This document shows, piece by piece, positions 1 to 54,546 of a stretch of 64,000 bases of DNA (its first letter is position 1; every line of letters begins with the position of its first letter). A program made the position numbers and the translations under genes. Source of the DNA: Bacteroidales bacterium (lineage in GTDB: Bacteria; Bacteroidota; Bacteroidia; Bacteroidales; WCHB1-69); assembly GCA_017395245.1 (NCBI GenBank), contig JAFPVR010000114.1:645-64644 (forward strand), in the 5' to 3' direction. The notes under the pieces were generated by a model that saw only the letters and a list, made by a program, of their open reading frames with translations, had not been told where the DNA came from and did no database searches.

Positions 1-1619
1 GACTGCTCATCGGCTTCGGTGAAATCACGGCCTTCGATGATGTCGATGCCCATAAAGCGCAGGAAGTTCCACGAAACAGGATAAACCTGCCAACCGGCAT
101 CCTCGCCCCGCACTTTGCGGCCCCAGCTCATGCGTGAATCCTGTATGAAAGGTCCGTCACCCCAAGCGACATCCTTGATGGCGGCATCGGCTTTCAACTT
201 ACTCTCCACCGCCTCGCGGTTGTTGGCAAGATTCAACGAGACCTGCGACTGCAACAGACATTCTTGATCGAAGCCCATTTCGTGGTTCATCATGAAACGG
301 CGTTGCTCGTGAACGAATATCGCACAGATTATCAGCACAATGGAAACAGTGAACTGCAGACCAATCAGACCGATGCGGAAAGCCTTTCCCTTTTGCGTAG
401 AGCCGAAAGATCCTTTCAATGCAAAGGCTGGGTTGAACGAGGTGGCGAACAAGGCGGGATAAATACTGGCAGCTACGGAGATGAGCAATGCCAAGCCGAT
501 AGTCAATGCAACGACGCCACCATTTTGTCCGAAATCAAGTGAAGTGTCAATCAATGAAGCCAATGTAGATTGCTTGAAGAGGATAACCACACCTACAGCA
601 AGTGCCAAAGATATAGCCACCATCAGCACCGACTCTCCCACCGATGACATCACCAACTGAAAACGACTGCTGCCCAGTATCTTGCGTGTATTGACACTTC
701 TCAGTTTCAACGGCACCATCGCGAAAAAGAAGTTAATGTAGTTGATGAAGGCGATGACCACCACGAAGATGGCGATGATGAGCAGGGTCATCGTGGTGGT
801 TTTGTTTCCCGCCTTGCCAGGGGCAAAATACGAATTGCTGTCGAAGTACATATCGGTCAATCGCACAGGATAAAGTCCAAACTTGACATCCTCGTCGGTG
901 GCCTCTTTTCCCATCATTTCATTAAAAAAGCGTCTGACTACAGGCTTTGACACTTCGACAATCGCATTGGGATCTGCACCTTTGCGAAGCTTCAGAAAAT
1001 AGTTGAACGAAAACTCGCTCCAATCATCGGTGTAATTATCGCCCAAATCAGCCAGCATTTCGAAAGAGGAAAGGTCGCTGTGCTTCGGCATATCTTTGTA
1101 GATGACCACAATAGATATATCCCGCCACTCCGATCCATTGAAGAATTTCATAACGTCACCCACCTGGACACCAAGGCGTTTTGCCGCCGATTCCGAAAGA
1201 GCGAAGCCAGTACCGGTCAAATCGTCCCAATTGCCAGCCACCAATTCGAACCCGAACACGTCACGGGCACCTTTGTTCATGACAGCTATTGAGATGGACA
1301 CAGGCGATTGCTCATCGCTTACACGAACTGTGATGGGATTGCCTGTGATTCCACCACAGCCACCGACTTCAATGTCAGGGGTGGCGTTGACAACATATTC
1401 CCCCAGGGGTCGGCAAAGTAAAGAGGAATATTCACTTTGGTTGATTTCCTTCTTGGTAAGGACATAAATCCGGTCGCTGTCCTTAAGCGCCTTGTTGTAG
1501 GACAGGTCGTGGTGCACCTGCACGAGGATGATGTAGAGGGCGGCGAAGGCGGCCGTCAGCCCGAGTATGTTGAGGGCTGACGAGACGGCTTGGGTTCTGG
1601 ATTGTTTGATGATTCGCAT
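1..1619 (-). CDS. ABC transporter permease, FtsX/MacB-like (partial; 3' end lies beyond window start)
   Basis: Missing from the ORF track because its stop lies left of position 1. The minus-strand ATG at 1619-1617 opens a frame (MRIIKQSRTQAVSSALNILGLTAAFAALYIILVQVHHDLSYNK...) that stays open to position 1. It is paralogous to the three complete FtsX-type ORFs in the window. Confidence 0.8.
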   Translation of the reverse strand, partial: MRIIKQSRTQAVSSALNILGLTAAFAALYIILVQVHHDLSYNKALKDSDRIYVLTKKEINQSEYSSLLCRPLGEYVVNATPDIEVGGCGGITGNPITVRVSDEQSPVSISIAVMNKGARDVFGFELVAGNWDDLTGTGFALSESAAKRLGVQVGDVMKFFNGSEWRDISIVVIYKDMPKHSDLSSFEMLADLGDNYTDDWSEFSFNYFLKLRKGADPNAIVEVSKPVVRRFFNEMMGKEATDEDVKFGLYPVRLTDMYFDSNSYFAPGKAGNKTTTMTLLIIAIFVVVIAFINYINFFFAMVPLKLRSVNTRKILGSSRFQLVMSSVGESVLMVAISLALAVGVVILFKQSTLASLIDTSLDFGQNGGVVALTIGLALLISVAASIYPALFATSFNPAFALKGSFGSTQKGKAFRIGLIGLQFTVSIVLIICAIFVHEQRRFMMNHEMGFDQECLLQSQVSLNLANNREAVESKLKADAAIKDVAWGDGPFIQDSRMSWGRKVRGEDAGWQVYPVSWNFLRFMGIDIIEGRDFTEADEQ

Positions 1620-1647: not shown

Positions 1648-1663
1648 TACAGCAACCGTGCCA
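1648..1663 (-). promoter_or_regulatory. TGGCAC box, weak sigma-54 -24/-12-like (TGGCACGGTTGCTGTA)
   Basis: 52 nt downstream of dyad pair B and 28 nt upstream of ATG 1619. The -12 position reads TGT rather than TGC. Confidence 0.3.
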
Positions 1664-1714: not shown

Positions 1715-1754
1715 GCGTAAACATCCTTTACAGCAGTGTAAGGATTCTTTACAC
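1715..1754 (-). promoter_or_regulatory. paired dyads TGTAA-N7-TTACA x2 (site B)
   Basis: Gene-sense sequence is GTGTAAAGAATCCTTACAC-TGC-TGTAAAGGATGTTTACGC. It has the same layout as sites A and C. Confidence 0.5.
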
Positions 1755-3030: not shown

Positions 3031-4452
3031 TCAGTCGGCAAACAGATCGTCCAGCGTAACCTGATATTGGACAGAGACGGAATATTCGTTATGAAAGAGA
3101 CCGAATGGAGTGATCCAAGTGGGAAGAATACCGTTTCGGGTCTTGGTCTCCCGGACGAATGCCGCCGTACGGTTACGGACTTTCAGGTCCTCATTGGAAG
3201 TGATGGTGTATTCTGATTGGGTGTATTTGATTTCGCAGAGGTTAACAAGACGATCGGCACGTTCGATAATCATATCCACTTGGGCACGTGGAGCTGTGGA
3301 ACTTCGCCATGAGTAATATTCAACGGCAATCTTGTCAAGGCCAAGAGCATGTCGTACCTGCCTAATATGAACCATGCACACATGCTCGAAGGCTAATCCT
3401 TGCCAACTGTTGAGAACTGGGGTGTTGAGACGCTGCTCCCAATAATCTTCAGTAGTTAGCTTTTTGGAGAAGGTGAGATGAAAAAGTGTAAAAAGGTCAA
3501 CCAGCTGGTAATAGGCCTCGTTAGTCTTTAGCCTGCCTCCAATTTTGGTCACATATCGGCGGATGATGTCGCAATATTCCAGATTTTCAAGCTGTTTACT
3601 CAGCGTCCCGCTGGATGATATTTTCAGTTTTTCTGCAATTTCTCCTCTCGTGAGTCCCTGCTTGTTCTTGCCTAATATCTCAACAATGCGAATGTAAGAC
3701 TCTGGCGACTTGAACAGAGAGGCGTAAAGACGTTGATACTCCTGTCCAAGTTCAGAATTTTTATGGAAATAGAGTCTGTCGATGTTTTGGGCAAGGCTCT
3801 CTTGAGGGTTGAGCAAACTGAGGTAATAGGGCACGCCCCCAAGCATCATGTAAGTCTCGACAATCATCTGCCGTGGCCAGTGGATTTTTTTAGTCTGCAG
3901 ATAGGATTCGGTTTCTGCTAACGTAAACTGTCTCAAATAAATAGTGTGTGTGGTTCGGTCATGGAGCCCTCCGTGGTCATTGACTATGTTTTCAATCATC
4001 CAAGAGGTGGCGGAACCGCAAACAATAAGTATGACATCTTTACGTAATGCGGCCCAAGTGTTCCAAAAATGTCCTAAAGCACGGACAAAGCCGGACTTGG
4101 GCGTATCAAAGCAAGGGAGCTCGTCAATATAGATAACCTGACGACCTTTGTGCAGCTGTCTCTCTAAAACAGATTTGAGTCCCTCAAATGCTTCGAGCCA
4201 AGTTTTGGGCTGAGGTCCCGTATAACCAACAGCAATCAAGGCACTCGTAAAGGCAAAGAGTTCCTCTTCACGGGTGCCTTTTAGGATACCCGTGGCGGAG
4301 AAGGCGAACTTGTTGTCGAAAAATTGTTGTATCAGATAAGTCTTGCCCACGCGCCGACGCCCGTAAACGGCCACAAATTCAGCTTTTCCAGAATCTTTAA
4401 TGTCTTGTAACATTTTGATTTCCTGTTTTCTGCCGATAAAATTTTTATCCAT
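3031..4452 (-). CDS. AAA-type ATP-binding protein (Arch_ATPase/DUF234-like)
   Basis: 473-aa ORF. The N-terminus FIGRKQEI...FVAVYGRRRVGKTYL carries a Walker A P-loop, typical of this ATPase family in Bacteroidales. It has its own TATCTTTG box at 4484-4477 and is AT-richer than its flanks. Confidence 0.75.
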   Translation of the reverse strand: MDKNFIGRKQEIKMLQDIKDSGKAEFVAVYGRRRVGKTYLIQQFFDNKFAFSATGILKGTREEELFAFTSALIAVGYTGPQPKTWLEAFEGLKSVLERQLHKGRQVIYIDELPCFDTPKSGFVRALGHFWNTWAALRKDVILIVCGSATSWMIENIVNDHGGLHDRTTHTIYLRQFTLAETESYLQTKKIHWPRQMIVETYMMLGGVPYYLSLLNPQESLAQNIDRLYFHKNSELGQEYQRLYASLFKSPESYIRIVEILGKNKQGLTRGEIAEKLKISSSGTLSKQLENLEYCDIIRRYVTKIGGRLKTNEAYYQLVDLFTLFHLTFSKKLTTEDYWEQRLNTPVLNSWQGLAFEHVCMVHIRQVRHALGLDKIAVEYYSWRSSTAPRAQVDMIIERADRLVNLCEIKYTQSEYTITSNEDLKVRNRTAAFVRETKTRNGILPTWITPFGLFHNEYSVSVQYQVTLDDLFAD

Positions 4453-4601: not shown

Positions 4602-4628
4602 GTAGAGACGCAAAATTTTGCATCTCAC
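4602..4628 (-). repeat. GTAGAGACGC-family inverted-repeat hairpin (possible terminator/RNA-stabilising hairpin)
   Basis: Sequence gtagagacgcaaaattttgcatctcac. The imperfection is a U-G wobble in the minus sense. Lies 44 nt downstream of the FtsX stop at 4672. Confidence 0.55.
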
Positions 4629-7078: not shown

Positions 7079-7256
7079 AGGTTCCACACTGCGCTGCGTT
7101 TGTGTCACAGTCTCCACACTGCGCCGCGCCTTGTCGTTATCGCTGTCTCCGCAGTCCGGACTTTTCTGTCTTGTCAAGCCCCACACTACGGCTTCGCCTT
7201 GTGTGGGGTTAATTGCGCTTCGCGCGTTTTGCCTCTCCGAGGCTGCTCAAGGAAGA
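7079..7256 (-). repeat. structured 5'-leader repeat L1 (expanded; extra degenerate CCACAC modules)
   Basis: The core at 7179-7256 is gccccacactacggcttcgccttgtgtggggttaattgcgcttcgcgcgttttgcctctccgaggctgctcaaggaag. Two degenerate hairpin modules lie at 7082-7178. It ends 14 nt before ATG 7065. Confidence 0.8.
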
Positions 7257-7275: not shown

Positions 7276-7290
7276 CCGAAAAAATGATTT

Positions 7291-7629
7291 ATGCAGGTAC
7301 TTACTGAAAAAATATCAAGAGAACAACTTAAAGAATTGGCATCCAATACTTTCATTGATATGATTAAGTGTGTGGCCGATGTGAGAAAAGGTCTTCTTGC
7401 TGTAGATGCAGAGCTCCATGCTGACTTGGAGTCGATGTTACTCGAGAACGGTTCGGAGCAGGAAAATCTTTGGGGTTTCAACCTGTATCCAGAAGAAACA
7501 GGGGATGACTTCATTGAATTCGACTCCTTAATCAATATCCGTTCTTGGCAAGGCAACCGCAGCCGTGATGTTGAGAATCCAGAAGTCAGGGAACAAATAA
7601 AATCCATCGTTTCAAAATTCGTTGAATAA
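7291..7629 (+). CDS. small conserved hypothetical protein (112 aa; possibly DUF5674-like, recalled from memory only)
   Basis: ORF follows a TATTTTTG box at 7268-7275. Its stop overlaps the next start (TAATG, 7627-7631). Confidence 0.6.
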   Translation: MQVLTEKISREQLKELASNTFIDMIKCVADVRKGLLAVDAELHADLESMLLENGSEQENLWGFNLYPEETGDDFIEFDSLINIRSWQGNRSRDVENPEVREQIKSIVSKFVE

Positions 7630-7952
7630 TGCAGCACGAGACACTCAGTAACGGAGCGTGGGCCGATATGCCCTTTCCAAAACAGATGGCCAATATTGGG
7701 AGCGAAACTTATCGTGCCACGAAATGGCTCGCCAAGGGCCGTCGCGACAACGCCGAAAAGGCTTTTGAGCGGATGCAGGAGCTCATCGACTTGACCATCG
7801 CATACGGTAGGCATGGGCAACCCAACCGCAAAGCCCTCCTGAAAGAGCTCTGCCGATTCCGGGAACTTTACTGCGGGGCTTTCCTTGATGGGGATTTGGA
7901 CACCCTTGCCGCGCTCAACCGTTATTTGGACCATTTTGCACATATCAATTGA
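7629..7952 (+). CDS. small hypothetical protein (107 aa)
   Basis: Translationally coupled to 7291..7629. A remnant copy of its last 23 codons survives at 2885-2956. Confidence 0.55.
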   Translation: MQHETLSNGAWADMPFPKQMANIGSETYRATKWLAKGRRDNAEKAFERMQELIDLTIAYGRHGQPNRKALLKELCRFRELYCGAFLDGDLDTLAALNRYLDHFAHIN

Positions 7953-7965: not shown

Positions 7966-10308
7966 CTATTCCTTCTTCAGCGCCTCAGCAGGGTTAGCCC
8001 TCGCAATTCTGACACTACTCATAACGACTACAATTGCTACGATGAGAAGAACCACGGTTGCGCCAAAGATGAAATACAACGGCGAGAGGCTGATGCGCTC
8101 GGCAAATTGTTCAAGCCATTTGTCGGCAACAAAATAGGCGAAAACACACGCAAAAATCGACATAATAAGAGATAACTTCAACACACCCCAAGCAAAAATG
8201 CTTAGCACATCTCTCTCTGTAGCACCGTTAATTTTGCGGATGGCCATTTCTTTGCTCCGACGACTCGACTCATCGCGTATGAAACCGATGAGACCCAACA
8301 TGGCAATCATCAATGCAAAAATGGAACCGATGAAAACGGTGTTGCGCATCTTGCGACTATCTTCGTATGCCGAATGCATTTCGTCTGCATATACTTTCAG
8401 CTGTACATCTTTTCCATCAAGGGCCTTAGAAATGGTTTCCTTCAGTTTCCCCATCGTGGTTTCATCCATTTTATTCACTTTGAAAACCAGATGCGGCATA
8501 TAAGACTCTCCGTCCTCCAAACTGCCGTAGAAACGCACGCTCGGTCGGGTATCCATATCCAAGAGGCTACCCAAGCGATAGTCGCGGTAAACACCCGTAA
8601 TAGTGAACGATTTAAGATTTGTCAAAGAGTTTTCGTGTCCAGTAATCATAATCTGTTTCCCCACCGCTCCATCGCTCCAGTCCGTGAAGTCATTCATTCG
8701 TTTCACGAAACTCTCGCTCACCACCACTTCATTGGAATCGGCCGGTGCGCGACCGTCAACAAACTCCATTCCGAAAAGAGCATAGAATTGCGCTGTGGCC
8801 TCGTACTGGTCGGCCACGTTGAACAATTCACGATCGTCGCCGGGAAGATATATGTTGTCGCCATTCGACCAAATGTAAGGAAGACCATAGCTTGCTGCAA
8901 TGTGTGTCACTTCAGAAAGTTGGCCAAGAGCATTCACCACACGTTGTTGAGCCTCTTGATTCCCGTCGTACATATCCACAAATAGTACATTCTCATAATT
9001 GTAGCCCGGGTCGTCGTTCATCATTTTATGATATTGCGAAGCGATGACCATCAGCATCGAAACGACAAATACATTGATAAACACCTGAACGCCAAGCAGT
9101 CCTATTTTCCATCGCCGCGAGTTTTCCGTATAATTGCGGAAGGCCACCGAAACGGGAATGCGCATGTAAAGCTGCGCAGGAACGAAAACGGAAACGAACA
9201 GCACAAGCAACAGCACAGCCACAATAGTCCAAATGCTTTGGGGAACAAGTAATGTCCCAAATGGCACACCCAACAAGTTCTGTATCAATCCTTTTGTGGC
9301 AAAAATAATGACAGCTGCCAAAACGAGTGCCGACAACAGATGTACAATCGACTCCCGAGCTAGTAAACCATAAATACTGAAAGCGTTCGCTCCATAGCAC
9401 TTTCGTACCCCAATTTCTTTGGCACGATGCACCATAGACGAAATTGTGATCAGGATATAATTGAGTAAGCTGATGACAATCAGCATTGTTGCAATAACGG
9501 AAAGCAAAATCACCATTGAATGCACCGAAGACTCCTTGAGGTGGGTTTTACCAAATGGTGCAAGATAATACCACAGCTTCATGCCGTTCTTCTCAAACTC
9601 CTCCAATGGCTGATGAGCCTCCTGCATCCTACGGATGGCATCATTGAGCGATTGGGGATCAACACCTTGTTGCAATTTCACAAATCCCACATAGCGGTCG
9701 TTACCGACCCAGTTCTCCGTGCTGCTTTTTGAATAACTCTCCATCGACAGCAACATGTCGGCATCTATGGAACCATTTTTAGGAAAATCCTTGAATACGC
9801 CCTCAATAGTCATTTTCAACAAAGGAACATCCTCGTTGTAGATGATTTTGCCCATACATTCCTCCACGCCGCCCATTTTTTTTGCAAACGACTCCGACAC
9901 CATCAGACACAGCGGCTCAGACAGCACTTTCTCCGGATTGCCAGCCAGAATGGGACGGTCAAAAACGCGGAAGAAGCATGAATCGGCCAAACGGAGATTT
10001 CCGGTGATGACATTGCCGGCCTCGTCCAAATAACGGTCACTATTGAAATAGAAGGTCATTCGAGTGGCTTCTTCCACTCCCGGCACCTCTGCCTTGAATC
10101 CAAATGCCACCGCTCCACTCACCTGAGGGAAATCTTTGGATTCGCCCTGTAGTTCGTAACCAGAACGGATGCAATATATACGGTCCACATCTTTATAGAA
10201 ACTGTCGTACGACAACTCGAAACACACCTTGGCAATCAGCACAATGCCAATAGCGAGTCCCACCCCGAGGGAGAGTATCTGGATTAGGAGATTACTTTTT
10301 CGATACAT
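7966..10308 (-). CDS. ABC transporter permease, FtsX/MacB-like
   Basis: ORF 7966..10434. Start moved to ATG 10308 (MYRKSNLLIQILSLGVGLAIGIVLIAK...), because the upstream extension translates a hairpin repeat. Ends ARANPAEALKKE. Confidence 0.85.
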   Translation of the reverse strand: MYRKSNLLIQILSLGVGLAIGIVLIAKVCFELSYDSFYKDVDRIYCIRSGYELQGESKDFPQVSGAVAFGFKAEVPGVEEATRMTFYFNSDRYLDEAGNVITGNLRLADSCFFRVFDRPILAGNPEKVLSEPLCLMVSESFAKKMGGVEECMGKIIYNEDVPLLKMTIEGVFKDFPKNGSIDADMLLSMESYSKSSTENWVGNDRYVGFVKLQQGVDPQSLNDAIRRMQEAHQPLEEFEKNGMKLWYYLAPFGKTHLKESSVHSMVILLSVIATMLIVISLLNYILITISSMVHRAKEIGVRKCYGANAFSIYGLLARESIVHLLSALVLAAVIIFATKGLIQNLLGVPFGTLLVPQSIWTIVAVLLLVLFVSVFVPAQLYMRIPVSVAFRNYTENSRRWKIGLLGVQVFINVFVVSMLMVIASQYHKMMNDDPGYNYENVLFVDMYDGNQEAQQRVVNALGQLSEVTHIAASYGLPYIWSNGDNIYLPGDDRELFNVADQYEATAQFYALFGMEFVDGRAPADSNEVVVSESFVKRMNDFTDWSDGAVGKQIMITGHENSLTNLKSFTITGVYRDYRLGSLLDMDTRPSVRFYGSLEDGESYMPHLVFKVNKMDETTMGKLKETISKALDGKDVQLKVYADEMHSAYEDSRKMRNTVFIGSIFALMIAMLGLIGFIRDESSRRSKEMAIRKINGATERDVLSIFAWGVLKLSLIMSIFACVFAYFVADKWLEQFAERISLSPLYFIFGATVVLLIVAIVVVMSSVRIARANPAEALKKE

Positions 10309-10335
10309 ATAATTGATGTTTGGTTTCTGCAATTT

Positions 10336-10364
10336 AAGGTGGGTCTGTAGAGACGCGCATGGTG
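10336..10364 (-). repeat. GTAGAGACGC-family hairpin
   Basis: TGTAGAGACGC-gcatggt-GCGTCTCTACA, an 11-bp stem. Lies between the ABC ATPase stop (10415) and the FtsX start (10308). No U-tract. Confidence 0.6.
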
Positions 10365-10414
10365 CGTCTCTACAAAATCCCTTCAATATGTTATTAACCA
10401 AATTTAATATGGCA

Positions 10415-11095
10415 TCACAGTTCCGGCAGCACATCCTCCACGATGTGGCCGTCGAAGAGGTTGATGATGCGGTCGGCGTAGCCCGCGTCGCGCTGCGAGT
10501 GGGTGACCATCACGATGGTGGTGCCCTCCTTGTGGAGCTCGGTGAGCAGGTCCATCACCTCCTTGCCGTTCTTGGAGTCGAGGTTGCCGGTGGGTTCGTC
10601 GGCGAGGATGAGCTTGGGGTTGGCGACCACGGCGCGGGCGATGGCCACACGCTGCTGCTGTCCGCCCGACAACTGCTGCGGGAAGTGCTTGGCCCGGTGG
10701 GTGATGGCCATCCGCTTCATCATCGCCGTGACCCGCTCCTTGCGCTCCGACGCGCTGATGTTCAGGTAGCGCAGCGGCAGCTCGATGTTCTCATAGACGT
10801 TCAGCTCGTCGATGAGGTTGAAGCTCTGGAACACGAAGCCGATGTTGCCTTTGCGGAACTTGGTGCGCTCCTTCTCCTTCAGGCTGCCGACCTGCTGGCC
10901 GAGCAGCTCGTAGGTGCCCTCGGTGGGGTTGTCCAGGAGGCCGAGGATGTTGAGCAGCGTGGATTTGCCGCAGCCCGACGGCCCCATGACGGCGACGAAC
11001 TCGCCGTCGTTGATGGTGAATGACACCCCGTCCAACGCGAGGGTCTCGATGTCTTCCGTGCGGAAGATTTTGGTGAGGTTTTGTACTTTGATCAT
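10415..11095 (-). CDS. ABC transporter ATP-binding protein (MacB/LolD-type)
   Basis: 226 aa. Walker A GPSGCGKST, ABC signature LSGGQQQRVAIARA, Walker B LILADEPTGNLD. Confidence 0.9.
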   Translation of the reverse strand: MIKVQNLTKIFRTEDIETLALDGVSFTINDGEFVAVMGPSGCGKSTLLNILGLLDNPTEGTYELLGQQVGSLKEKERTKFRKGNIGFVFQSFNLIDELNVYENIELPLRYLNISASERKERVTAMMKRMAITHRAKHFPQQLSGGQQQRVAIARAVVANPKLILADEPTGNLDSKNGKEVMDLLTELHKEGTTIVMVTHSQRDAGYADRIINLFDGHIVEDVLPEL

Positions 11096-11123
11096 AATAT
11101 AAGGTATTTTGATGTTTCTATAC

Positions 11124-11215
11124 GCCCCACATTACGCTCCTCCGTCGCTCATGTGGGGTTATTAGCACTTCGTGCGTTTTGTCCCTCCGGGACTGCTCAA
11201 GGAAGTGGTTATTAT
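11124..11215 (-). repeat. structured 5'-leader repeat L2
   Basis: All three stems are changed by compensatory pairs (CCCCACAT/ATGTGGGG, GCAC/GTGC, GTCCC/GGGAC). 29 nt before ATG 11095. Confidence 0.8.
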
Positions 11216-11234
11216 ATTGGGGTTTTACGTTCAT

Positions 11235-11283
11235 AAATCTCAAGTCTTAAATCTCAAGTCTTAAGTCTCAAATCTCACGTCTC
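11235..11283 (-). repeat. 7-nt tandem array (7 units; gene-sense GAGAyKT/AAGACTT) overlapping the FtsX stop codon
   Basis: Plus strand: aaatctc aagtctt aaatctc aagtctt aagtctc aaatctc acgtctc. The stop tca is at 11282-11284. Confidence 0.85.
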
Positions 11284-13630
11284 AATTCGCTTTCAGCGCC
11301 CTCGCGGGGTTGGTCTTCGCTGCTCGTAACGTCTGCCATAACACCGAGAGGAAGGCCAGCAACAGGGTGACCACAACCGCCACGACAATGATCCAGCCGT
11401 AATGTTCGATTCGGTAGGCGAAACGTTCCAAGTATTTGCCGCTAAGCCAAACCGCAATGGGAGCTCCGATGATGGCGGCGATTCCGACGAGCATCATATA
11501 ACTCTTCACCGTGCGCAGCAACTCGCGGTTGACATCGCTGCCGAAGACCTTGCGGACGGCAATACTGTGGCTTCCTTCATCGCAATAGTAGGTGCTCATG
11601 GCGACGAGGCCGAGCAGCGACAGCAACACCGACAAGCCCATGAAAATCTCCAACAGCCGCACGGTGCGCTTGGCTGGCTCCAACGACTTAAGATTCAGGT
11701 CGTCCACATAACCGCAATCGTCCTGTCCCGCAAAGGGTTCCCCATCCTTTTCCGCCCACTGCTGGCACTGTTTCAGGATAATCTTCCGAGCCTCCGAATG
11801 GTCGCCGATGGTTCTGACAAATAGATCGCTTGCCCATGTCAACTTCCGGGTTTCCTGTACCAGTACACCCACGTTCTGGTTGCTTAAGCCATCCGGAGAG
11901 GCCGCGCTCTCCCCCGGGAAATCTTTAAGCATTCCGCCGATGTAGTCGGCATCCTGATTCATCATGATTGCAAGTTTTTTCGGCATGGTAACGGAAGTGT
12001 CAGAAGCCCCGCTTTTGGCAAAGGCGTGTTCACCAAGCCAGAGCGAGTTGGCGAGTGGATGGCCGAAATCTTCCACCACTTCGAAACCTAACATGCGAAA
12101 ATAAGCGCTGTCACCGATGAGCAACTTCAAGATAAAATCTTCCTCGTCCAAACGTATGCCGACAGAATAAGCCGCGCTTCCGGGAAATCCTCGCCCTATG
12201 CCAACCTCTTTGACACAAGGCAGTTGCGCTATTTCATCGGCTAAAGTAGCCAAATGAGGCACAGAATACCAGATGCCGCTGATGTAAAACAAGTCTTTCG
12301 TGTTCGCATGGGTGGGACGCCTGATCATGTGCCACATCTGAACCTCCATCACGATGGCAATGGCTATCAGTATAACAGACAGGACGTTCTGGAAGACGAT
12401 GAAGATTTTGTTGAGCCACATCTTGCTGTGATGGCGAAATGTACCCCGCACCACATCAATGGGTTCGTAATACGATGCATACAGTGCGGGTAACCATCCC
12501 GAGAGTGTTCCCATCAGCAAGATTCCGCTCAGATACGCGACTATATAAGTCGGTTTCGTCATCAACTGCAATTGAATGTCGCTTTCCGGTGTTGCACTGG
12601 CCAACAGCCAGTTCATCACGGGAACAAGGGCGTGAGCCAACAAAAAGGCAAAACCGAAACATACTGCCGTGAACAACACAGATTCGATAATAAGTTTGCC
12701 CATGACGGAGAGTTTCTGTGCCCCCAAAAGCCTGCGGGTAGCCATCTCCTTGGCGCGTTTACCCACCAAAGCCATATTGAGGTTGACGTAGTTGATGAGT
12801 GCCGACAGAAGGAGAAGGAACACCACCGCCGACAATATCCGTATGCTGCTGAGGTTGCCGCTGCGTAATACATAATCGTTCTCAGTGCGGAAGAACATCT
12901 CCTTGAAACTGAATATTTTAAGTTCTTTATTTATCCACGATCCATAGTTTTGACGGCATACTTCAAGTATTTGTGCCTTGAAATCTTCTTCGTTGGTGTT
13001 TTCCATCCTGCGAATAAAGGTCTTCGTGCCGTCCACGCTGTGGAAAGGTTCGCGCCCAGCCCACCATTTCTCATTCACCGGAATCAATACATCAATGTGG
13101 GCAACCAAGGTGTTTTCCGGACCATCCATAATGCCGCAAATGATGTATTCCTCATCCTCTCCTTCTATGACGAAACGTTGTCCTATAAGGTCGCCCTTTT
13201 TCTCCAGACTGTTCGCGAAACTCCGGCTGACAATGGCGTTATGGGTGCCGTCGAACGGGATGGCTGTGCCCTCCACAAGGCTAAACTGGGGAAAGATCTT
13301 GAAGAACTCCGCATCCACCTGACGAACTTCCGCTTCATAGTTTTTTTTGTGGTAAGAAATCTCGTCGGTGGCATAGCCAAAGCGAGCTATAGCCTCGATT
13401 CCAGGCACCTGCGCTTCGATGGAGGACTTATCCCACACTGAAAGTCCCAAGTTGGAGGTGGTGCCGAGGCCGTAAATGCGGTCATGGCCAGGTTGCTGAT
13501 ACACGACGGCCAGATGTTGGGCCACGTAACTGCCGATTAGGATGACGAAGGCGAGGCTCACGACGAGCCCCACCGCTTCGACGGCGGTGTAGAGTTTGTT
13601 GCGACTGAGGAATTTGAGGTAGCTCTTCAT
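11282..13630 (-). CDS. ABC transporter permease, FtsX/MacB-like
   Basis: ORF 11282..13651. Start moved to ATG 13630 (MKSYLKFLSRNKLYTAVEAVGLVVSLAF...). Same architecture as 4672..7065. Confidence 0.85.
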   Translation of the reverse strand: MKSYLKFLSRNKLYTAVEAVGLVVSLAFVILIGSYVAQHLAVVYQQPGHDRIYGLGTTSNLGLSVWDKSSIEAQVPGIEAIARFGYATDEISYHKKNYEAEVRQVDAEFFKIFPQFSLVEGTAIPFDGTHNAIVSRSFANSLEKKGDLIGQRFVIEGEDEEYIICGIMDGPENTLVAHIDVLIPVNEKWWAGREPFHSVDGTKTFIRRMENTNEEDFKAQILEVCRQNYGSWINKELKIFSFKEMFFRTENDYVLRSGNLSSIRILSAVVFLLLLSALINYVNLNMALVGKRAKEMATRRLLGAQKLSVMGKLIIESVLFTAVCFGFAFLLAHALVPVMNWLLASATPESDIQLQLMTKPTYIVAYLSGILLMGTLSGWLPALYASYYEPIDVVRGTFRHHSKMWLNKIFIVFQNVLSVILIAIAIVMEVQMWHMIRRPTHANTKDLFYISGIWYSVPHLATLADEIAQLPCVKEVGIGRGFPGSAAYSVGIRLDEEDFILKLLIGDSAYFRMLGFEVVEDFGHPLANSLWLGEHAFAKSGASDTSVTMPKKLAIMMNQDADYIGGMLKDFPGESAASPDGLSNQNVGVLVQETRKLTWASDLFVRTIGDHSEARKIILKQCQQWAEKDGEPFAGQDDCGYVDDLNLKSLEPAKRTVRLLEIFMGLSVLLSLLGLVAMSTYYCDEGSHSIAVRKVFGSDVNRELLRTVKSYMMLVGIAAIIGAPIAVWLSGKYLERFAYRIEHYGWIIVVAVVVTLLLAFLSVLWQTLRAAKTNPARALKAN

Positions 13631-13644: not shown

Positions 13645-13718
13645 GCCCCACACTGCGCTTCGCTTGTATGGGGTTATTAGCGCTTCGCGCGTCTTGCCTC
13701 TCCGAGGCTGCTTAAGGA
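13645..13718 (-). repeat. structured 5'-leader repeat L3
   Basis: 15 nt before ATG 13630. The single stem change gives a U-G wobble in gene-sense RNA and a C-A mismatch in antisense. Confidence 0.8.
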
Positions 13719-13767
13719 TTTATTTTTTTTATAAACATCCATACATCGTTCTTCATCATTCTCATAC

Positions 13768-13783
13768 ATCATTTTCCGTGCCA
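13768..13783 (-). promoter_or_regulatory. TGGCAC box, weak sigma-54 -24/-12-like (TGGCACGGAAAATGAT)
   Basis: 52 nt downstream of dyad pair A. The -12 position reads TGA. Followed by leader repeat L3 and ATG 13630. Confidence 0.3.
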
Positions 13784-13834
13784 AAAACATAAACCATTGG
13801 TTGTCAATTCTCTAAACATCTAACAAAAGGGCCG

Positions 13835-13875
13835 CTGTAAAGATTTCTTACAGCAGGTGTAAGGTTTCTTTACAG
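13835..13875 (-). promoter_or_regulatory. paired dyads TGTAA-N7-TTACA x2 (site A)
   Basis: Gene-sense sequence is CTGTAAAGAAACCTTACAC-CTGC-TGTAAGAAATCTTTACAG. Confidence 0.5.
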
Positions 13876-14156: not shown

Positions 14157-14198
14157 CATTCATAATTCATAATTCATAATTCTTAATTCTTAATTTCC
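14157..14198 (-). repeat. 7-nt tandem array (6 units; gene-sense AAGAATT/ATGAATT) overlapping the HlyD stop
   Basis: Plus strand: cattcat aattcat aattcat aattctt aattctt aatttcc. Stop at 14183-14185. Confidence 0.85.
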
Positions 14199-15445
14199 AA
14201 CACTTCCGCCTCCCCATACCCGTCATACGACGACGTAATCACCCTCTCGCCCGGCTCCAGTCCTTCCAAAACCTCGTAGTACTGCGGATTCTGGCGACCG
14301 ATGCGTATCTCTCGCTTCACGGCACGTTTGCCGTCGGGGGAGACCACGTATATCCACTTGCCGCCGGTCTTTTGGTAGAAGGCGCCGCGCGGGATGAGCA
14401 CCGCCTCCACCGGCTGACCGAGCTGCAGGTTCAGGTAGAACGTCTGACCGTTGCGGATATTTTCCGGCTGACCGTCCGCAAATTTGAAGTCGGCCTTGAA
14501 CTTGCCGTCACGAACCTCGGGATAGACCTTGCGTATCAGCACGTTGCACTTGTCGCCCTGCCGCTCGAAGTCGGCCTCCAACCCTGCCGTCACCCGGTCG
14601 ATGTAGTGCTCGTCAATCAGGGCCTCGATCTTGTAGTTGTCCTGATTGTTAATCTGTCCGACCTTACTGCCCATCGCGACAGACTGTCCGAGCACCACAT
14701 CCACCAGGCCAAGTTCCCCGTCAATCGGAGCCTTGATGGTGAGATTGTCTTTACGCTGCCTAATCATCTGCATGTTGAGTTTCATGTTCTCCAAACTTTC
14801 GTGCATCTGCCGGATCTCCACCGAACGGTAGAGGCTGTCTTGCTTGGCGCGGTTCTCCACCAGCGTGAGGCGGTCTTTGGCCAACTGGTAGTCCTCCTCG
14901 GCCTGCAGAAAAGCCTCTCGGGCTATGAGGTTGTCGTCGTACAGCGACTTCTGCGCCTCGTAGGTGCGTTTCTTGCGGCGCACCTCCATCTGCAGCTGCA
15001 ACTTTTCCTGCTGCAGGGTCAGCTTCTGCTGCTCCATCTGGATCATCGTGTTGCGGAGGATGTTCTCCTTTTCGGCCAGGTCGGCTTCAGCATTGAGAAT
15101 CTGCATATCAAGACTTTCGTTGCTGAGTATCAGGATGATGTCGCCCTCACGGACGTGTGCGCCCTCCTCCGCGACGATTTCCTTCACTACCCCACCCTCC
15201 AACGGGCTAAGCTGCACGGTGGTCATCGGCACCACGCGCCCGCTCACGCGGATGTAGTCGTTGAACTCGCCCCGCCGCACCTCGCTGACGGTGATGGCTT
15301 CTCCGCCCACACGCAACTTCCTGGCGTCATCGCGCAGTGCCAGCCACCCGATGAAGACGAGCAGCAGTGCCCCGCCCCAGTAGGGCAACGCCTTGCGGGT
15401 GAAGAGTTTCCGGAATCCTTTTTTTTGCTCTATCGCTCTATCCAT
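14183..15445 (-). CDS. HlyD-family / efflux periplasmic adaptor subunit
   Basis: 420 aa with an N-terminal TM anchor, a long coiled-coil (QQEKLQLQMEVRRKKRTYEAQ...) and beta-barrel/lipoyl-like flanks. Located between the TolC-like and ABC genes. Confidence 0.85.
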   Translation of the reverse strand: MDRAIEQKKGFRKLFTRKALPYWGGALLLVFIGWLALRDDARKLRVGGEAITVSEVRRGEFNDYIRVSGRVVPMTTVQLSPLEGGVVKEIVAEEGAHVREGDIILILSNESLDMQILNAEADLAEKENILRNTMIQMEQQKLTLQQEKLQLQMEVRRKKRTYEAQKSLYDDNLIAREAFLQAEEDYQLAKDRLTLVENRAKQDSLYRSVEIRQMHESLENMKLNMQMIRQRKDNLTIKAPIDGELGLVDVVLGQSVAMGSKVGQINNQDNYKIEALIDEHYIDRVTAGLEADFERQGDKCNVLIRKVYPEVRDGKFKADFKFADGQPENIRNGQTFYLNLQLGQPVEAVLIPRGAFYQKTGGKWIYVVSPDGKRAVKREIRIGRQNPQYYEVLEGLEPGERVITSSYDGYGEAEVLEIKN

Positions 15446-15450: not shown

Positions 15451-15478
15451 GGTTATTGGTTATGGGTTATAGGTTATT
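15451..15478 (-). repeat. 7-nt tandem array (4 units; gene-sense NATAACC) spanning the TolC stop and ending 5 nt before the HlyD ATG
   Basis: Plus strand: ggttatt ggttatg ggttata ggttatt. Confidence 0.85.
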
Positions 15479-16801
15479 GAAGCTGATACCAGCGTAATAT
15501 CGCACCACCCACGTCTTCAGAAACAGCTGCAACCGCGCGTTGAGGAGGTCGGCAACGGCGGTGAGGTGGTTGTCGGCAACGGTCTGGTAGTCAAGGGCGG
15601 AGATGAGGCCCTGTTCGAACTGGCGGACGCTCATGGCGTACAGCTGCTGCTGTAAGGCAGCGTGCTGCTGGGCTTGCTGGAGGGCAGCAGCGGCTCCGTC
15701 GCGGTCGGCAAGGGCGCGATGAATCTCGGCCTCAACGGTTTGCCGGGCCTGCGCGTATCGAGCTTCGGCACGGTCGCAGTCGTTGCGACGACGAGCAATC
15801 TCCGTCTGCCGCGACAGCCGGTTGTAGATCGGGATATTCAGCGAAAGCTGCACATACTCACCACCGTTGTTGGCAATCTGCTGTCCGTATGGGGCGGTCA
15901 CATAGTCCGTTCGACCAGGATAGGTGAAGTACGTAGAGGACCAGCCGCCATTCAGCGACAGCGAGGGTAGCAGCTGCCAGCGGGCGGTCTTGAGGGCGAG
16001 GCGGGCGGTCTGCCGCTCATTTTCGGCTATGATTACAGCGGGCAGACGATCTGCCGCCCGACTCACCTCCATCGTGTGCACCGCATCCGACAGCGACGTG
16101 TCCGCCTCCACATCCGTAACGGAAAACGGCTGTTCAGTCGGATATAACATAATGTCTTTCAACGTGATATAGGCATTCTGAAGCTGATTTTCACAGACGA
16201 TGTACTTGTATTTACGGTCGGAGAGTTCCGCCTCCATCTGTAGCACGTCCGCCTGCGACTTCTGCCCCAAATCTTTCTGTCGTTGTGCAAGCCGCAGAGC
16301 CGTCTCCGCTGTCTCCATCTGCGCCTGCACTGTCCTCGACAACTCCGTGAAATAGAGCACATTGCAGTAGGCTTCTATCGTGGCAAGCGTGATTTTGTCC
16401 TCCGTCTGCTGAATTCTCGTCACACCCGTCGCCTCCGCAATCTTCGTGATTTTCATGTTGTTGATTGCGCGAAAGCCGTTAAAGAGGGTGATACCTGCGG
16501 ATAGACTGTAGCCATTGTGGAAGGAGGTGGTGTTGCTGTAGGTATTGGTCTCAGGGTCAATGGAGCGCCCGAAGTTGGAATAGGCGTATGTATTGGCGTC
16601 AATCTCCGGGGTGAAAGCGTTGAGGATGGCGTTTCGGCGGGCCAGCTGCGCGTCCCCGAGGTCGGCCTGGAACACGCGCACCTCCGCTGAATGCGACAGC
16701 GCGTAACGTACGCAGTCGCGCAGGGTCATCATTGCCGTGTCCTGCGCGTGCGCCGCCCCGAACATCATCATCAACAGGATTATTATCGTTTTTTTGAACA
16801 T
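15467..16801 (-). CDS. TolC-family outer-membrane efflux protein
   Basis: ORF 15467..16831. Start moved to ATG 16801 (MFKKTIIILLMMMFGAAHAQ, signal peptide). Shows the repeated alpha-helical/beta-strand OEP pattern. Confidence 0.85.
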   Translation of the reverse strand: MFKKTIIILLMMMFGAAHAQDTAMMTLRDCVRYALSHSAEVRVFQADLGDAQLARRNAILNAFTPEIDANTYAYSNFGRSIDPETNTYSNTTSFHNGYSLSAGITLFNGFRAINNMKITKIAEATGVTRIQQTEDKITLATIEAYCNVLYFTELSRTVQAQMETAETALRLAQRQKDLGQKSQADVLQMEAELSDRKYKYIVCENQLQNAYITLKDIMLYPTEQPFSVTDVEADTSLSDAVHTMEVSRAADRLPAVIIAENERQTARLALKTARWQLLPSLSLNGGWSSTYFTYPGRTDYVTAPYGQQIANNGGEYVQLSLNIPIYNRLSRQTEIARRRNDCDRAEARYAQARQTVEAEIHRALADRDGAAAALQQAQQHAALQQQLYAMSVRQFEQGLISALDYQTVADNHLTAVADLLNARLQLFLKTWVVRYYAGISFNNL

Positions 16802-16825: not shown

Positions 16826-16841
16826 TGCCAAAAGGATGCCA
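16826..16841 (-). promoter_or_regulatory. sigma-54-like -24/-12 element (TGGCATCCTTTTGGCA; GG-N10-GC spacing exact)
   Basis: 53 nt downstream of dyad pair C and 24 nt upstream of the tolC-like ATG at 16801. Confidence 0.45.
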
Positions 16842-16893
16842 AAAACATATCACACTGATTATCAAATAATCAGCAAAAACAGAAAAGAAAAAA

Positions 16894-16933
16894 GTGTAAG
16901 AAAAACTTACAGTATGTGTAATGGAATTTTACG
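16894..16933 (-). promoter_or_regulatory. paired dyads (C/T)GTAA-N7-TTACA x2 (site C)
   Basis: Gene-sense sequence is CGTAAAATTCCATTACA-CATAC-TGTAAGTTTTTCTTACAC. Confidence 0.5.
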
Positions 16934-16960: not shown

Positions 16961-17030
16961 CATTACATACTTCATTCATAATTCATAATTCTACATTCTT
17001 CATTCTACATTCCTAATTCTTAATTATCAG
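16961..17030 (-). repeat. 7-nt tandem array (~10 units; gene-sense NNGAATK) overlapping the EamA stop
   Basis: Plus strand: cattaca tacttca ttcataa ttcataa ttctaca ttcttca ttctaca ttcctaa ttcttaa ttatcag. Confidence 0.8.
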
Positions 17031-17885: not shown

Positions 17886-17900
17886 AGTTTATTTGTTACC

Positions 17901-17975
17901 GCCCCACACTGCGGCTTCGCCTTGTGTGGGGTTATTTGCGCTCCGCGCGTTTTGCCTCTTCGAGGCTGCTCAAGG
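17901..17975 (-). repeat. structured 5'-leader repeat L4
   Basis: 16 nt before ATG 17885. Confidence 0.8.
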
Positions 17976-22923: not shown

Positions 22924-23000
22924 GCCCCACACTGCGGCTTCGCCTTGTGTGGGGTTAATTGCGCTTCGCGCTTTTTGCCTCTTCGAGGCTGCTTAAGGAA
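22924..23000 (-). repeat. structured 5'-leader repeat L5 (archetype)
   Basis: Gene-sense sequence: TTCCTTAAGCAGCCTCGAAGAGGCAAAAAGCGCGAAGCGCAATTAACCCCACACAAGGCGAAGCCGCAGTGTGGGGC. 22 nt before the argS ATG at 22902. Confidence 0.85.
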
Positions 23001-23029
23001 TATGTTTAAATGTAGCTGGGTTAACGCAA

Positions 23030-23059
23030 TGTAGAGACGTGCCACGGCGCGTCTCTACA
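23030..23059 (-). repeat. GTAGAGACGC-family hairpin
   Basis: tGTAGAGACG...CGTCTCTACa, downstream of the FKBP stop (23118) and just before leader repeat L5. Confidence 0.6.
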
Positions 23060-26633: not shown

Positions 26634-26661
26634 GTAGAGACGCAAAATTTTGCGTCTCTAC
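26634..26661. repeat. GTAGAGACGC-family hairpin (perfect 14-bp palindrome)
   Basis: GTAGAGACGCAAAA/TTTTGCGTCTCTAC, overlapping the ALDH stop at 26658. Sits between convergent genes. Confidence 0.6.
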
Positions 26662-54535: not shown

Positions 54536-54546
54536 TGACATACGAC

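What the first reader, a model, noticed from the sequence alone, without database searches (positions are those of the whole stretch)
16826..16933. Composite control module (two TGTAA-N7-TTACA dyads + TGGCAY box at fixed offset) before the tolC-hlyD genes: candidate sigma-54 promoter with enhancer sites
In gene sense, 16933-16894 reads CGTAAAATTCCATTACA-CATAC-TGTAAGTTTTTCTTACA. These are two 17-bp dyads, 22 bp centre to centre. After a 52-nt gap comes TGGCATCCTTTTGGCA (16841-16826), 24 nt before the TolC-like ATG.

The same layout recurs at 13875-13768 and 1754-1648. In all three the dyads are 21-22 bp apart and the pair midpoint lies 71-73 nt upstream of the TGGCAY box.

TGGCAY-N5-TKGYA resembles the sigma-54 -24/-12 consensus TGGCAC-N5-TTGCW. 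The GG-N10-GC spacing is exact at this copy. Paired dyads on the same helix face about 70-100 bp upstream are the classical arrangement for enhancer-binding-protein (NtrC-family) sites. No regulator gene is present in the window, so the cognate factor is unknown.
Basis: partly seen in the sequence, partly recalled or inferred. Interest (0 to 1): 0.66.

Follow-up and report, generated by a model that had tools for sequence, protein, structure and literature searches.

The report
Sigma-54 enhancer-promoter modules before efflux genes
Three copies of a conserved control module (two activator-binding palindromes, a DNA-bending-type site and a sigma-54 promoter) sit in front of the outer-membrane channel, adaptor and ABC-permease genes of a Bacteroidales export-pump cluster, and the matching two-component activator is encoded just outside the window; this is a textbook mechanism in a poorly studied regulon.

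Summary
All six TGTAA-N7-TTACA sites in the window form three pairs, each 52-53 nt upstream of TTTGGCAY and directly before a TolC or FtsX/MacB-type gene.

- An exact-pattern scan of species genomes found the dyad pair in at least 119 stretches, nearly all Bacteroidales.
- In 89 unique cases TGGCA follows 52-56 nt later.
- Unselected positions then fit the sigma-54 consensus: C/T at +5, G/A at +6, T at +12 (78 of 91), G at +13 (90 of 91). The GG-N10-G spacing is exact.
- A third element, resembling the IHF consensus, sits at a fixed place between them in 68 of 91.
- Downstream genes are TolC, HlyD, ABC ATPase or FtsX permeases in at least 62 of 89.

Relatives of this activator sit beside such pump genes in 48 of 53 metagenomic loci.

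Caveats: the -12 C is degenerate, the activator loop reads GAFTDA, and rpoN was not seen. There is no transcription-start or binding data.

Verdict: a new member of a known kind, of moderate interest.

The parts
16917..16933 (-). Module 1, distal activator-site dyad (CGTAAAATTCCATTACA)
   Evidence: One mismatch to TGTAA-N7-TTACA. Its centre is about 84 nt upstream of the T of TGGCA.
16895..16911 (-). Module 1, proximal dyad (TGTAAGTTTTTCTTACA)
   Evidence: Lies 22 bp centre-to-centre from the distal dyad. It is followed by CTTTT, as in the cross-genome consensus.
16860..16872 (-). Module 1, IHF-consensus-like site (TGATTATTTGATA, reverse orientation, 1 mismatch). It is part of the perfect hairpin CTGATTATTTGATAATCAG.
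   Evidence: A site at the same fixed position occurs in 68 of 91 modules, against a mean of 0.4 at other offsets.
16826..16841 (-). Module 1, sigma-54-type -24/-12 promoter TGGCATCCTTTTGGCA (GG 16840-16839, GC 16828-16827). Predicted start near 16815.
   Evidence: GG-N10-GC spacing is exact. The ATG at 16801 gives a leader of about 14 nt.
15467..16801 (-). TolC-family outer membrane channel gene, the first gene driven by module 1
   Evidence: Pfam OEP, 3.8e-47. The start is taken at ATG 16801. The TTG at 16831 listed would overlap the promoter.
14183..15445 (-). HlyD/membrane-fusion adaptor gene, second gene of the module 1 unit
   Evidence: HlyD_3. (DarC-like, RND_mfp).
13858..13874 (-). Module 2, distal dyad (TGTAAAGAAACCTTACA)
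13836..13852 (-). Module 2, proximal dyad (TGTAAGAAATCTTTACA)
   Evidence: With its flanks it also scores as a terminator-like hairpin (-10.9 kcal/mol).
13790..13802 (-). Module 2, IHF-consensus-like site AACCAATGGTTTA (forward orientation, 1 mismatch)
13768..13783 (-). Module 2, sigma-54-type promoter TGGCACGGAAAATGAT (GG 13782-13781, TG 13771-13770, A in place of the -12 C). Predicted start near 13757.
   Evidence: It is the only zero-mismatch hit to TGGCAYRNNNNWTG in the window.
7966..13630 (-). Unit behind module 2: duplicated FtsX/MacB-type permease (13630-11282), ABC ATPase (11095-10415) and a second permease (about 10308-7966)
1737..1753 (-). Module 3, distal dyad (TGTAAAGAATCCTTACA)
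1716..1732 (-). Module 3, proximal dyad (TGTAAAGGATGTTTACG)
   Evidence: Lies 21 bp from the distal dyad.
1648..1663 (-). Module 3, sigma-54-type promoter TGGCACGGTTGCTGTA (GG 1662-1661, TG 1651-1650, T in place of the -12 C). Predicted start near 1637.
   Evidence: The ATG at 1619 gives a leader of about 18 nt.
1..1619 (-). FtsX/MacB-type permease gene behind module 3. It runs off the left end of the window.
   Evidence: In L001 it is a 786-aa permease. It is followed by an HTH/HipA pair, then the activator, the kinase and LolA1.

Best explanation
Each of the three segments is an enhancer-dependent sigma-54 promoter. RNA polymerase with sigma-54 would sit as a closed complex on TGGCAY-N6-TG, with GG at -24 and G at -13.

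An NtrC-type response regulator is encoded about 2.8 kb left of the window. Once phosphorylated by its small membrane-anchored kinase, it would bind the two TGTAAAG-N3-CTTTACA dyads. These are centred near -88 and -110, two helical turns apart. The regulator would then assemble into an ATPase ring.

An A/T-rich site resembling the IHF consensus, centred near -46, would bend the DNA so that the ring touches sigma-54 and opens the promoter.

The three promoters switch on, in parallel, the parts of a MacB-type tripartite exporter: TolC and adaptor; permease, ATPase and permease; and a further permease.

Shown here: the sequence architecture, its conservation, and the gene linkage. Inferred: binding, looping, sigma-54 dependence, and the signal.
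For: Window statistics: all six dyad hits are the three pairs.

Cross-genome conservation:
- At least 119 stretches carry the exact dyad pair, nearly all from Bacteroidales.
- The TGGCA offset peaks at 52-55 nt, in 87 occurrences around 140 dyad-pair instances. The wider 52-56 nt range holds 89 unique modules.
- Among 91 modules, unselected positions read +5 C66/T25, +6 G64/A26, +12 T78 and +13 G90. This is the consensus TGGCACG-N4-TTGC at exact spacing.
- Dyad centres lie 61-65 and 82-87 nt from TGGCA, with a standard deviation of about 1.1 nt.
- An IHF-like match occurs at a fixed place in 68 of 91, against a mean of 0.4 elsewhere.
- The first downstream gene is FtsX in 30, TolC in 25, ABC in 6 and HlyD in 1 of 89. 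It starts about 40-60 nt after TGGCA.

Regulator:
- REC, Sigma54_activat, AAA_lid and HTH_8 domains, plus an adjacent kinase.
- It matches Aquifex NtrC1 and ZraR over its full length.
- Orthologues lie within 8 kb of the dyads in 15 of 119 loci. In several the dyads are directly upstream of the activator gene.
- 48 of 53 activator-relative loci of at least 8 kb carry pump genes.
- The half-site and palindrome sequence changes along with activator divergence.

Literature:
- Sigma-54 promoters were predicted to be enriched before FtsX permeases in Bacteroidia (PMC12316311).
- A -24/-12 motif was validated in Flavobacterium (PMC9723704).
Against: - No rpoN gene was seen in the window or in the accessible flanks.
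- The -12 C is canonical in only 36 of 91 modules. It is A in window copy 2 and T in copy 3.
- The activator's sigma-54 contact loop reads GAFTDA, not GAFTGA, in all orthologues.
- The plain promoter pattern is not enriched in the window.
- Activator relatives below about 56% identity have no TGTAA-N7-TTACA pair nearby. Some relatives at 58-60% identity arrange the half-sites differently.
- In this genome the activator gene is 4-19 kb from the three modules and sits behind an inserted HipA-type pair.
- One permease gene (start 7065) has no module.
- There is no transcription-start, expression or binding data.
Confidence: 0.85

Rival explanations
1. The box is a sigma-54 promoter, but the dyads are bound by a different activator encoded elsewhere in the genome, not by the neighbouring NtrC-type regulator.
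For: The regulator is 4-19 kb away in this genome and separated from the modules by inserted genes. Bacteroidales usually carry several such activators (my own knowledge). Some close relatives of the regulator have no exact dyad pair nearby.
Against: Orthologues with the GAFTDA loop lie within 8 kb of the dyads in 15 of 119 loci. In several lineages they sit directly next to them: L027, L030, L036, L040, L042, L084, L104 and L105. The regulator is linked to pump genes in 48 of 53 loci. The palindrome sequence shifts with regulator divergence.
Confidence: 0.07
2. The dyads are operators for an ordinary repressor or activator acting on a housekeeping-type Bacteroidetes promoter, and the TGGCA box is incidental.
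For: TTTG within TTTGGCA resembles the Bacteroidetes -33 element (my own knowledge). The sigma-70-type scan also flags 13784-13755.
Against: No TAnnTTTG-like conservation lies downstream of the box; information content is near zero from +15 to +29. By contrast, +5, +6, +12 and +13 are conserved at exact sigma-54 spacing. The dyads lie 60-85 nt upstream of the box, which is enhancer-like rather than operator-like. The only DNA-binding-domain gene seen near the cluster other than the activator is part of a HipA-type insertion. Other loci were not searched for it.
Confidence: 0.04
3. The dyads act as RNA or DNA hairpins (terminators of the upstream gene, or attenuators), or are ends of a small repeated mobile element.
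For: The proximal dyad of copy 2, taken with its flanks, scores as a terminator-like hairpin followed by a T-run (-10.9 kcal/mol). CTTT follows the proximal dyad in most genomes.
Against: The bare dyads fold weakly, at -0.2 to -4 kcal/mol. It is the sequence that is conserved, not just the pairing: TGTAAAG and CTTTACA across about 67 genomes. They keep a fixed distance to a promoter-like box and to the start codon. They also occur in divergent intergenic regions, where no gene ends.
Confidence: 0.03

Closest known systems
NtrB/NtrC with the glnAp2 enhancer (enteric bacteria)
   Same: A two-component activator with REC, AAA+ and Fis-type HTH domains. Two dyad sites lie on the same helical face about 100 bp upstream of a -24/-12 promoter. 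The activator oligomerises on the enhancer and contacts sigma-54 by looping (my own knowledge; architecture compared).
   Different: Dyad sequence: TGTAAAG-N3-CTTTACA here, against TGCACC-N5-GGTGCA. Spacing: 21-22 bp here, against about 32 bp. The targets are an export pump, not nitrogen assimilation. The kinase is membrane-anchored with no sensor domain. The NCBIfam ntrC model scores 358 bits against a cut-off of 559.
AtoS/AtoC, ZraS/ZraR, and the PEP-CTERM PrsK/PrsR regulators
   Same: These give the best named sequence matches to the activator and the kinase. All are NtrC-family two-component systems that drive one or a few sigma-54 promoters through paired palindromes.
   Different: None reaches its curated cut-off: PEP_resp_reg scores 401 against 503, AtoC 378 against 714 and ZraR 335 against 760. 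The targets and the binding motif differ.
Computationally predicted sigma-54 control of FtsX-like ABC permeases (COG0577) in Bacteroidia (PMC12316311, 2025)
   Same: The same class of genes and the same sigma factor. That study calls this link previously unrecognised.
   Different: That paper scores promoters only. It contains no mention of upstream activating sites, palindromes or IHF, and it assigns no activator to this gene family in the passages read. The enhancer motif, the bending-type site, the cognate two-component system and the multi-promoter layout are added here.
IHF-assisted sigma-54 promoters (for example nifH, Pu)
   Same: A site matching WATCAANNNNTTR lies between enhancer and promoter at a fixed position.
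   Different: The site appears in either orientation, mirrored about position -19.5 relative to TGGCA. That looks like a palindrome, AAN4TTGAT/ATCAAN4TT. No IHF or HU gene was examined here.
BceRS-BceAB-type peptide-sensing modules of Firmicutes
   Same: A histidine kinase with no sensory domain is encoded next to an ABC transporter with FtsX-type permeases that it regulates.
   Different: The regulator there is OmpR-type acting at a sigma-70 promoter. The kinase there has two membrane helices. The transporter there has no TolC or adaptor partners. No evidence here for a kinase-permease contact.

Membership tests
Sigma-54 (RpoN)-dependent promoter | GG at -24 and G(C) at -13/-12, separated by exactly 10 nt, within a TGGCAC-N5-TTGC-like sequence | tested here: met
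   With TGGCA as the anchor, +5 is C/T (91 of 91), +6 is G/A (90 of 91), +12 is T (78 of 91) and +13 is G (90 of 91). All three window copies fit at +13; copy 1 has G in place of T at +12.
Sigma-54 (RpoN)-dependent promoter | A highly conserved C at -12 | tested here: inconclusive
   Position +14 reads C 36, T 36, A 14 and G 5 of 91. The window copies read C, A and T. The element is degenerate in this regulon.
Sigma-54 (RpoN)-dependent promoter | rpoN present in the genome, and transcription dependent on it | not testable with these tools
   No rpoN in the 64-kb window or in the 7 kb beyond it.
Sigma-54 (RpoN)-dependent promoter | Transcription start about 11-13 nt downstream of the -12 element | not testable with these tools
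   No transcript data. Indirect support only: start codons lie about 40-60 nt after TGGCA in most modules.
NtrC-family enhancer (upstream activating sequence) | An activator with a sigma-54-interaction AAA+ domain and a DNA-binding HTH, encoded in the locus | tested here: met
   Domains and E-values: Response_reg 9e-20, Sigma54_activat 1.9e-68, AAA_lid_14, HTH_8 1e-11. The kinase gene overlaps it by 4 nt.
NtrC-family enhancer (upstream activating sequence) | A GAFTGA loop for contact with sigma-54 | tested here: inconclusive
   The loop reads GAFTDA (GSFTDA in one case) in the orthologues where that region aligned. F and T are kept; the second G is replaced by D.
NtrC-family enhancer (upstream activating sequence) | Paired palindromic sites 80-150 bp upstream of the start, on one helical face | tested here: met
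   Spacing is 21-22 bp. The centres lie about 62-63 and 84 nt before TGGCA, that is near -88 and -110.
NtrC-family enhancer (upstream activating sequence) | Sites and activator co-occur and co-vary across genomes | tested here: met
   (dyads adjacent to the activator gene in several lineages). (48 of 53 loci with pump genes). (TGTAAAG half-sites in close relatives, TGTCAAA/TGTCTAA palindromes in distant ones).
NtrC-family enhancer (upstream activating sequence) | Direct binding of the activator to the dyads | not testable with these tools
   Requires gel-shift, footprinting or ChIP.
IHF-assisted looping | WATCAANNNNTTR between enhancer and promoter | tested here: met
   68 of 91 modules match with at most 1 mismatch at the fixed place, against a mean of 0.4 elsewhere. 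Window copies 1 and 2 have 1 mismatch; copy 3 has 3.
IHF-assisted looping | An IHF or HU-type protein present that binds the site | not tested
   No such gene was looked for; it needs the whole genome and a binding assay.
Bce-like transporter-coupled sensing | A kinase without a sensory domain next to an FtsX-type ABC transporter | tested here: met
   The kinase is 285 aa with one N-terminal hydrophobic helix. HisKA starts at residue 78. In relatives whose activator is more than 57% identical, most complete kinases are 285-293 aa (one of 344 aa).
Bce-like transporter-coupled sensing | An OmpR-type regulator and physical kinase-permease coupling | tested here: not met
   The regulator is NtrC-type. 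Coupling cannot be tested. So this is not a Bce module; at most it is analogous to one.

The most novel reading that the evidence does not exclude
The kinase of this system has no sensory domain, and every paralogous permease unit carries its own enhancer-dependent promoter. The circuit could therefore work like the Firmicute Bce modules: the MacB-type transporter itself reports substrate load to the kinase. Here that logic would be rebuilt in a Gram-negative bacterium on a sigma-54 enhancer chassis, with a relaxed -12 element and a GAFTDA activator loop. That would make it a transporter-coupled, tightly off/on defence switch specific to gut and rumen Bacteroidales.
Probability: 0.15. Interest if true: 0.65.

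Novelty: new member of a known kind. Interest (0 to 1): 0.42.

Why it matters
Gut and rumen Bacteroidales carry many paralogous MacB-type (duplicated FtsX) permease genes together with TolC and adaptor partners. Their substrates and control are unknown.

This analysis provides:
- a concrete, testable regulon: a defined enhancer motif (TGTAAAG-N3-CTTTACA, in two copies), a fixed bending-type site, and a sigma-54 promoter variant with a degenerate -12 base;
- a named candidate two-component system that would drive it.

With these in hand one can search for the inducing signal, predict the regulon in hundreds of uncultured genomes, and build tightly regulated expression tools for Bacteroidales. 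The mechanism itself is textbook, so the value lies in annotation and regulon definition rather than in new biology.

Tried and rejected
1. A regulator inside the window. Pfam scans of most ORFs of 150 aa or more found none.
2. The plain sigma-54 pattern as evidence on its own. It is not enriched in the window.
3. Rfam. The only window hit is Acido-Lenti-1 at 54508-54560. There is nothing at the modules or at the repeated leader element.
4. Dyads as RNA hairpins or terminators. They fold weakly and are conserved in sequence, not just in pairing.
5. A Bacteroidetes housekeeping promoter. There is no conserved -7 box downstream of TGGCA.
6. Literature on this regulon. Six full-text searches found only the 2025 PSSM survey (PMC12316311) and a Flavobacterium sigma-54 motif paper. 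There was nothing in the B. thetaiotaomicron transcriptome or iModulon papers.
7. Exact dyad pairs near every activator relative. This held only for close relatives. More distant ones carry other arrangements or other palindromes.
8. Some pattern hits in other phyla are unrelated 22-bp iteron arrays (L024, L107, L115; also L038, L041, L079, L081 and L111) and were set aside.

Full report
**What is in the sequence**

Read on the minus strand, three intergenic segments share one layout. Each has two 17-bp dyads of the form TGTAA-N7-TTACA, 21-22 bp centre to centre. A 52-53 nt spacer follows, and then TTTGGCAY.

The dyad pattern, with up to one mismatch, occurs six times in the 64-kb window. Shuffles give a mean of 1.3 and a maximum of 4. 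The six hits are exactly the three pairs.

| Copy | Position | Gene immediately downstream |
|---|---|---|
| 1 | 16933-16826 | TolC-family gene (ATG 16801), then a HlyD-type adaptor |
| 2 | 13874-13768 | Duplicated FtsX/MacB-type permease, ABC ATPase, second permease |
| 3 | 1753-1648 | Another such permease, which runs off the left end |

Two corrections apply. Only copy 1 has GG-N10-GC; copies 2 and 3 read TG-A and TG-T at that place. A simple sigma-54 pattern is also not enriched in the window by itself (32 found, 35 expected).

**The regulator**

The window holds no regulator. I looked up the contigs that encode the window's 473-aa ATPase gene. This returned a contig that is 99.95% identical to the window and extends past position 1.

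In that contig, after the last permease come these genes, in order:
- a small HTH gene and a HipA-type gene;
- a 449-aa protein with Response_reg, Sigma54_activat (1.9e-68), AAA_lid_14 and HTH_8 domains;
- a 285-aa histidine kinase, overlapping the previous gene by 4 nt;
- LolA1.

The activator gene starts about 2.8 kb left of window position 1. It matches Aquifex NtrC1 over its full length (1.5e-86) and also ZraR and LuxO. It reaches no curated NCBIfam equivalog cut-off.

The kinase has one N-terminal hydrophobic helix, and its HisKA domain starts at residue 78. That leaves no room for a sensory domain.

**Cross-genome test of the module**

I scanned one genome per species for the exact pattern TGTAA-N7-TTACA-N(4,5)-TGTAA-N7-TTACR. 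Nearly all are gut or rumen Bacteroidales.

- *Offset.* Around the 140 dyad-pair instances, TGGCA peaks sharply 52-55 nt beyond the pair on one side (87 occurrences). All other offsets have 1-5 each.
- *Breadth.* This gives 89 unique modules from about 67 assemblies.
- *Promoter positions.* I anchored on TGGCA and added the three window copies. Positions I did not select for are conserved exactly where the sigma-54 consensus TGGCACG-N4-TTGC requires them: +5 is C66/T25, +6 is G64/A26, +12 is T78 and +13 is G90 of 91. Position +14, the canonical -12 C, is degenerate: C36, T36, A14, G5.
- *Dyad positions.* Dyad centres sit 61-65 and 82-87 nt upstream of the T of TGGCA, with a standard deviation of about 1.1 nt. 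That places them near -88 and -110 from the predicted start.
- *Extended dyad.* The dyads extend to TGTAAAG-N3-CTTTACA, and the proximal one is followed by CTTT.

**A third element**

Between enhancer and promoter lies a match to the IHF consensus WATCAANNNNTTR, with at most one mismatch. The forward form sits at -20/-19 relative to TGGCA. The reverse form sits at -32/-31.

Such a match is present in 68 of 91 modules. The same test at other offsets gives a mean of 0.4 and a maximum of 4. The two orientations are mirror images about position -19.5, so the underlying site looks palindromic. Window copies 1 and 2 have one mismatch; copy 3 keeps only TCAA-N4-TT.

**Target genes**

In at least 62 of the 89 modules the first downstream gene is a homologue of the window's genes: FtsX permease (30), TolC (25), ABC ATPase (6) or HlyD (1). 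It usually starts 40-60 nt after TGGCA, which implies leaders of roughly 15-35 nt. Most of the remaining modules are cut off by the ends of the fetched loci.

**Linking the activator to the dyads**

- Orthologues of the activator (44-69% identical; all with the loop GAFTDA or GSFTDA where that region aligned) lie within the 8-kb chunk in 15 of 119 loci.
- In L040, L084 and L104 the dyads are followed by TGGAAC-N5-TTGAC directly before the activator gene, which suggests autoregulation.
- In Maribacter, Prolixibacteraceae and other Bacteroidota (L027, L030, L036, L042, L105) the dyads lie 25-80 nt from the activator's start codon. In L030, L036 and L105 a canonical or near-canonical TGGCAC-N5-TTGCA-type box faces the other way.

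I also ran the reciprocal test. Eighty metagenomic loci were chosen only for encoding a relative of the activator (44-76% identity).
- 72 have the kinase next to it.
- 48 of the 53 loci of at least 8 kb also encode HlyD, FtsX or TolC homologues.
- Exact dyad pairs appear only near the closer relatives.
- Relatives at 58-60% identity have the same GTGTAAAG half-site in other arrangements (direct repeats and nested inverted repeats) before a TGGCACG-N4-GTGC box and TolC.
- Relatives at or below 54% identity carry TGTCAAA/TGTCTAA palindromes together with TGGCAC-N5-TTGAT.

So the cis motif changes along with the regulator, as expected for a cognate pair.

**Mechanism proposed**

Sigma-54 holoenzyme waits on the -24/-12 element. 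The phosphorylated NtrC-type activator binds the two dyads on one face of the helix and forms an ATPase ring. A bend at the IHF-like site brings the ring to the closed complex. The three promoters then co-induce the channel and adaptor, the permease-ATPase-permease unit, and a further permease.

Architecture, conservation and linkage are shown here. Binding, looping, sigma-54 dependence and the inducing signal are inferred.

**Points against or still open**

- rpoN was not seen in any accessible sequence.
- The -12 C is non-canonical in two of the three window copies.
- The activator loop is GAFTDA rather than GAFTGA.
- One permease gene (start 7065) has no module.
- The activator gene sits behind a HipA-type insertion in this genome.

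**Rivals**

- *RNA hairpins or terminators.* The dyads fold weakly as RNA (-0.2 to -4 kcal/mol) and are conserved in sequence, not merely in pairing. This argues against terminators or attenuators, although copy 2's proximal dyad with its flanks does resemble one.
- *Housekeeping promoter.* No conserved TAnnTTTG-type -7 box follows TGGCA, which argues against a housekeeping Bacteroidetes promoter.
- *A different activator.* Binding by another activator cannot be excluded without binding data. It is disfavoured by the adjacency and co-variation results.

**What is known**

A 2025 PSSM survey reported sigma-54 promoter enrichment before COG0577 FtsX-type permeases in Bacteroidia and called the link previously unrecognised. 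It contains no mention of an enhancer, palindromes or IHF, and the passages read assign no activator to this gene family (PMC12316311). A -24/-12 motif has been validated by mutagenesis in Flavobacterium psychrophilum (PMC9723704). I found nothing on this regulon in B. thetaiotaomicron transcriptome or iModulon papers.

**Verdict**

It is a new, well-defined member of the classical NtrC/sigma-54 enhancer-promoter class. It comes with a defined motif, a candidate regulator and a conserved pump regulon in Bacteroidales. Interest is moderate.

Noticed in passing
window 7170-7252, 13650-13722, about 17900-17975, 22924-23004, about 52500-52593 (all minus strand): A conserved element of about 75 nt occurs five times: CCTTAAGCAGCCTCGGAGAGGCAAAACGCGCGAAGCGCAATTAACCCCACACAAGGCGAAGCCGCAGTGTGGGGC. 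It is always in the sense of the gene, 10-90 nt upstream of its start (two FtsX permeases, EamA, ArgRS, a Fib_succ_major protein). It folds into three short hairpins with GAA/GGA loops, and one pair shows a compensatory change. There is no Rfam match. The exact core was found only in the same-species contigs. In copy 2 it lies in the 127-nt leader behind the sigma-54 promoter.
   Followed up: partly
window 10347-10373, 23031-23058, 26634-26661 (half copy at 4602-4610); also L001 15197-15230 and L124 about 3260-3290: A second repeated intergenic hairpin, GTAGAGACG-N9/10-CGTCTCTAC. The 9-mer GTAGAGACG occurs seven times in the window, against 0.24 expected. A related copy sits in the TolC leader of a different species (L124), just after its sigma-54 promoter.
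   Followed up: partly
L001 15365-17188 (beyond the window's left end): An HTH_3 (Xre-type) gene plus a HipA-type kinase gene, which looks like a toxin-antitoxin pair, lie between the last permease gene and the activator gene. The activator's start codon is 16 nt after the hipA stop.
   Followed up: no
window 3031-4452 and 1758-2858 (minus strand); 7284-7945 (plus strand): Unrelated genes interrupt the permease cluster: an ATPase_2/DUF4143 protein, a 355-366-aa protein with no Pfam match, and two small opposite-strand genes (one DUF5674). The permease that starts at 7065 has no dyad and promoter module of its own.
   Followed up: partly
window 37583-51130 (minus) and 58548-63932 (minus); 29796-31247, 51134-58519: There is a 4515-aa ORF, and a 1794-aa ORF with SprB repeats and a CHU_C type IX secretion signal. 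They are flanked by five paralogous Fib_succ_major-domain genes.
   Followed up: no
window 54508-54560 (plus strand): The only Rfam gathering-score hit in the window is Acido-Lenti-1 RNA (38.9 bits against a cut-off of 37). It lies between two Fib_succ_major genes.
   Followed up: no
window 16965-17012 and 13735-13765 (minus strand): GAATG/ATGAA-rich low-complexity tracts (for example aggaatgtagaatgaagaatgtagaattatgaattatgaatgaag) lie just upstream of module 1 and just downstream of the module 2 promoter.
   Followed up: no
L024, L107 (Coriobacteriia); L115 (Chitinophagaceae); L038, L041, L079, L081, L111 (one Bacteroidaceae MAG); L031; L078: The dyad-pair pattern also picked up unrelated tandem arrays of 21-22-bp palindromic units (TGTAACnTCAnGTTACA; TGTAAGTGnCACTTACAAAG). 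These have no TGGCA box and look like iterons or another regulator's sites.
   Followed up: no
L030 3654-4187 and 2386-3606; L036 5049-5603 and 5649-6896: In Prolixibacteraceae, the sigma-54 promoter that diverges from the activator gene drives a 177-184-aa protein with no Pfam match and a group-1 glycosyltransferase, rather than pump genes. An ABC ATPase gene lies beyond the kinase in L030.
   Followed up: partly
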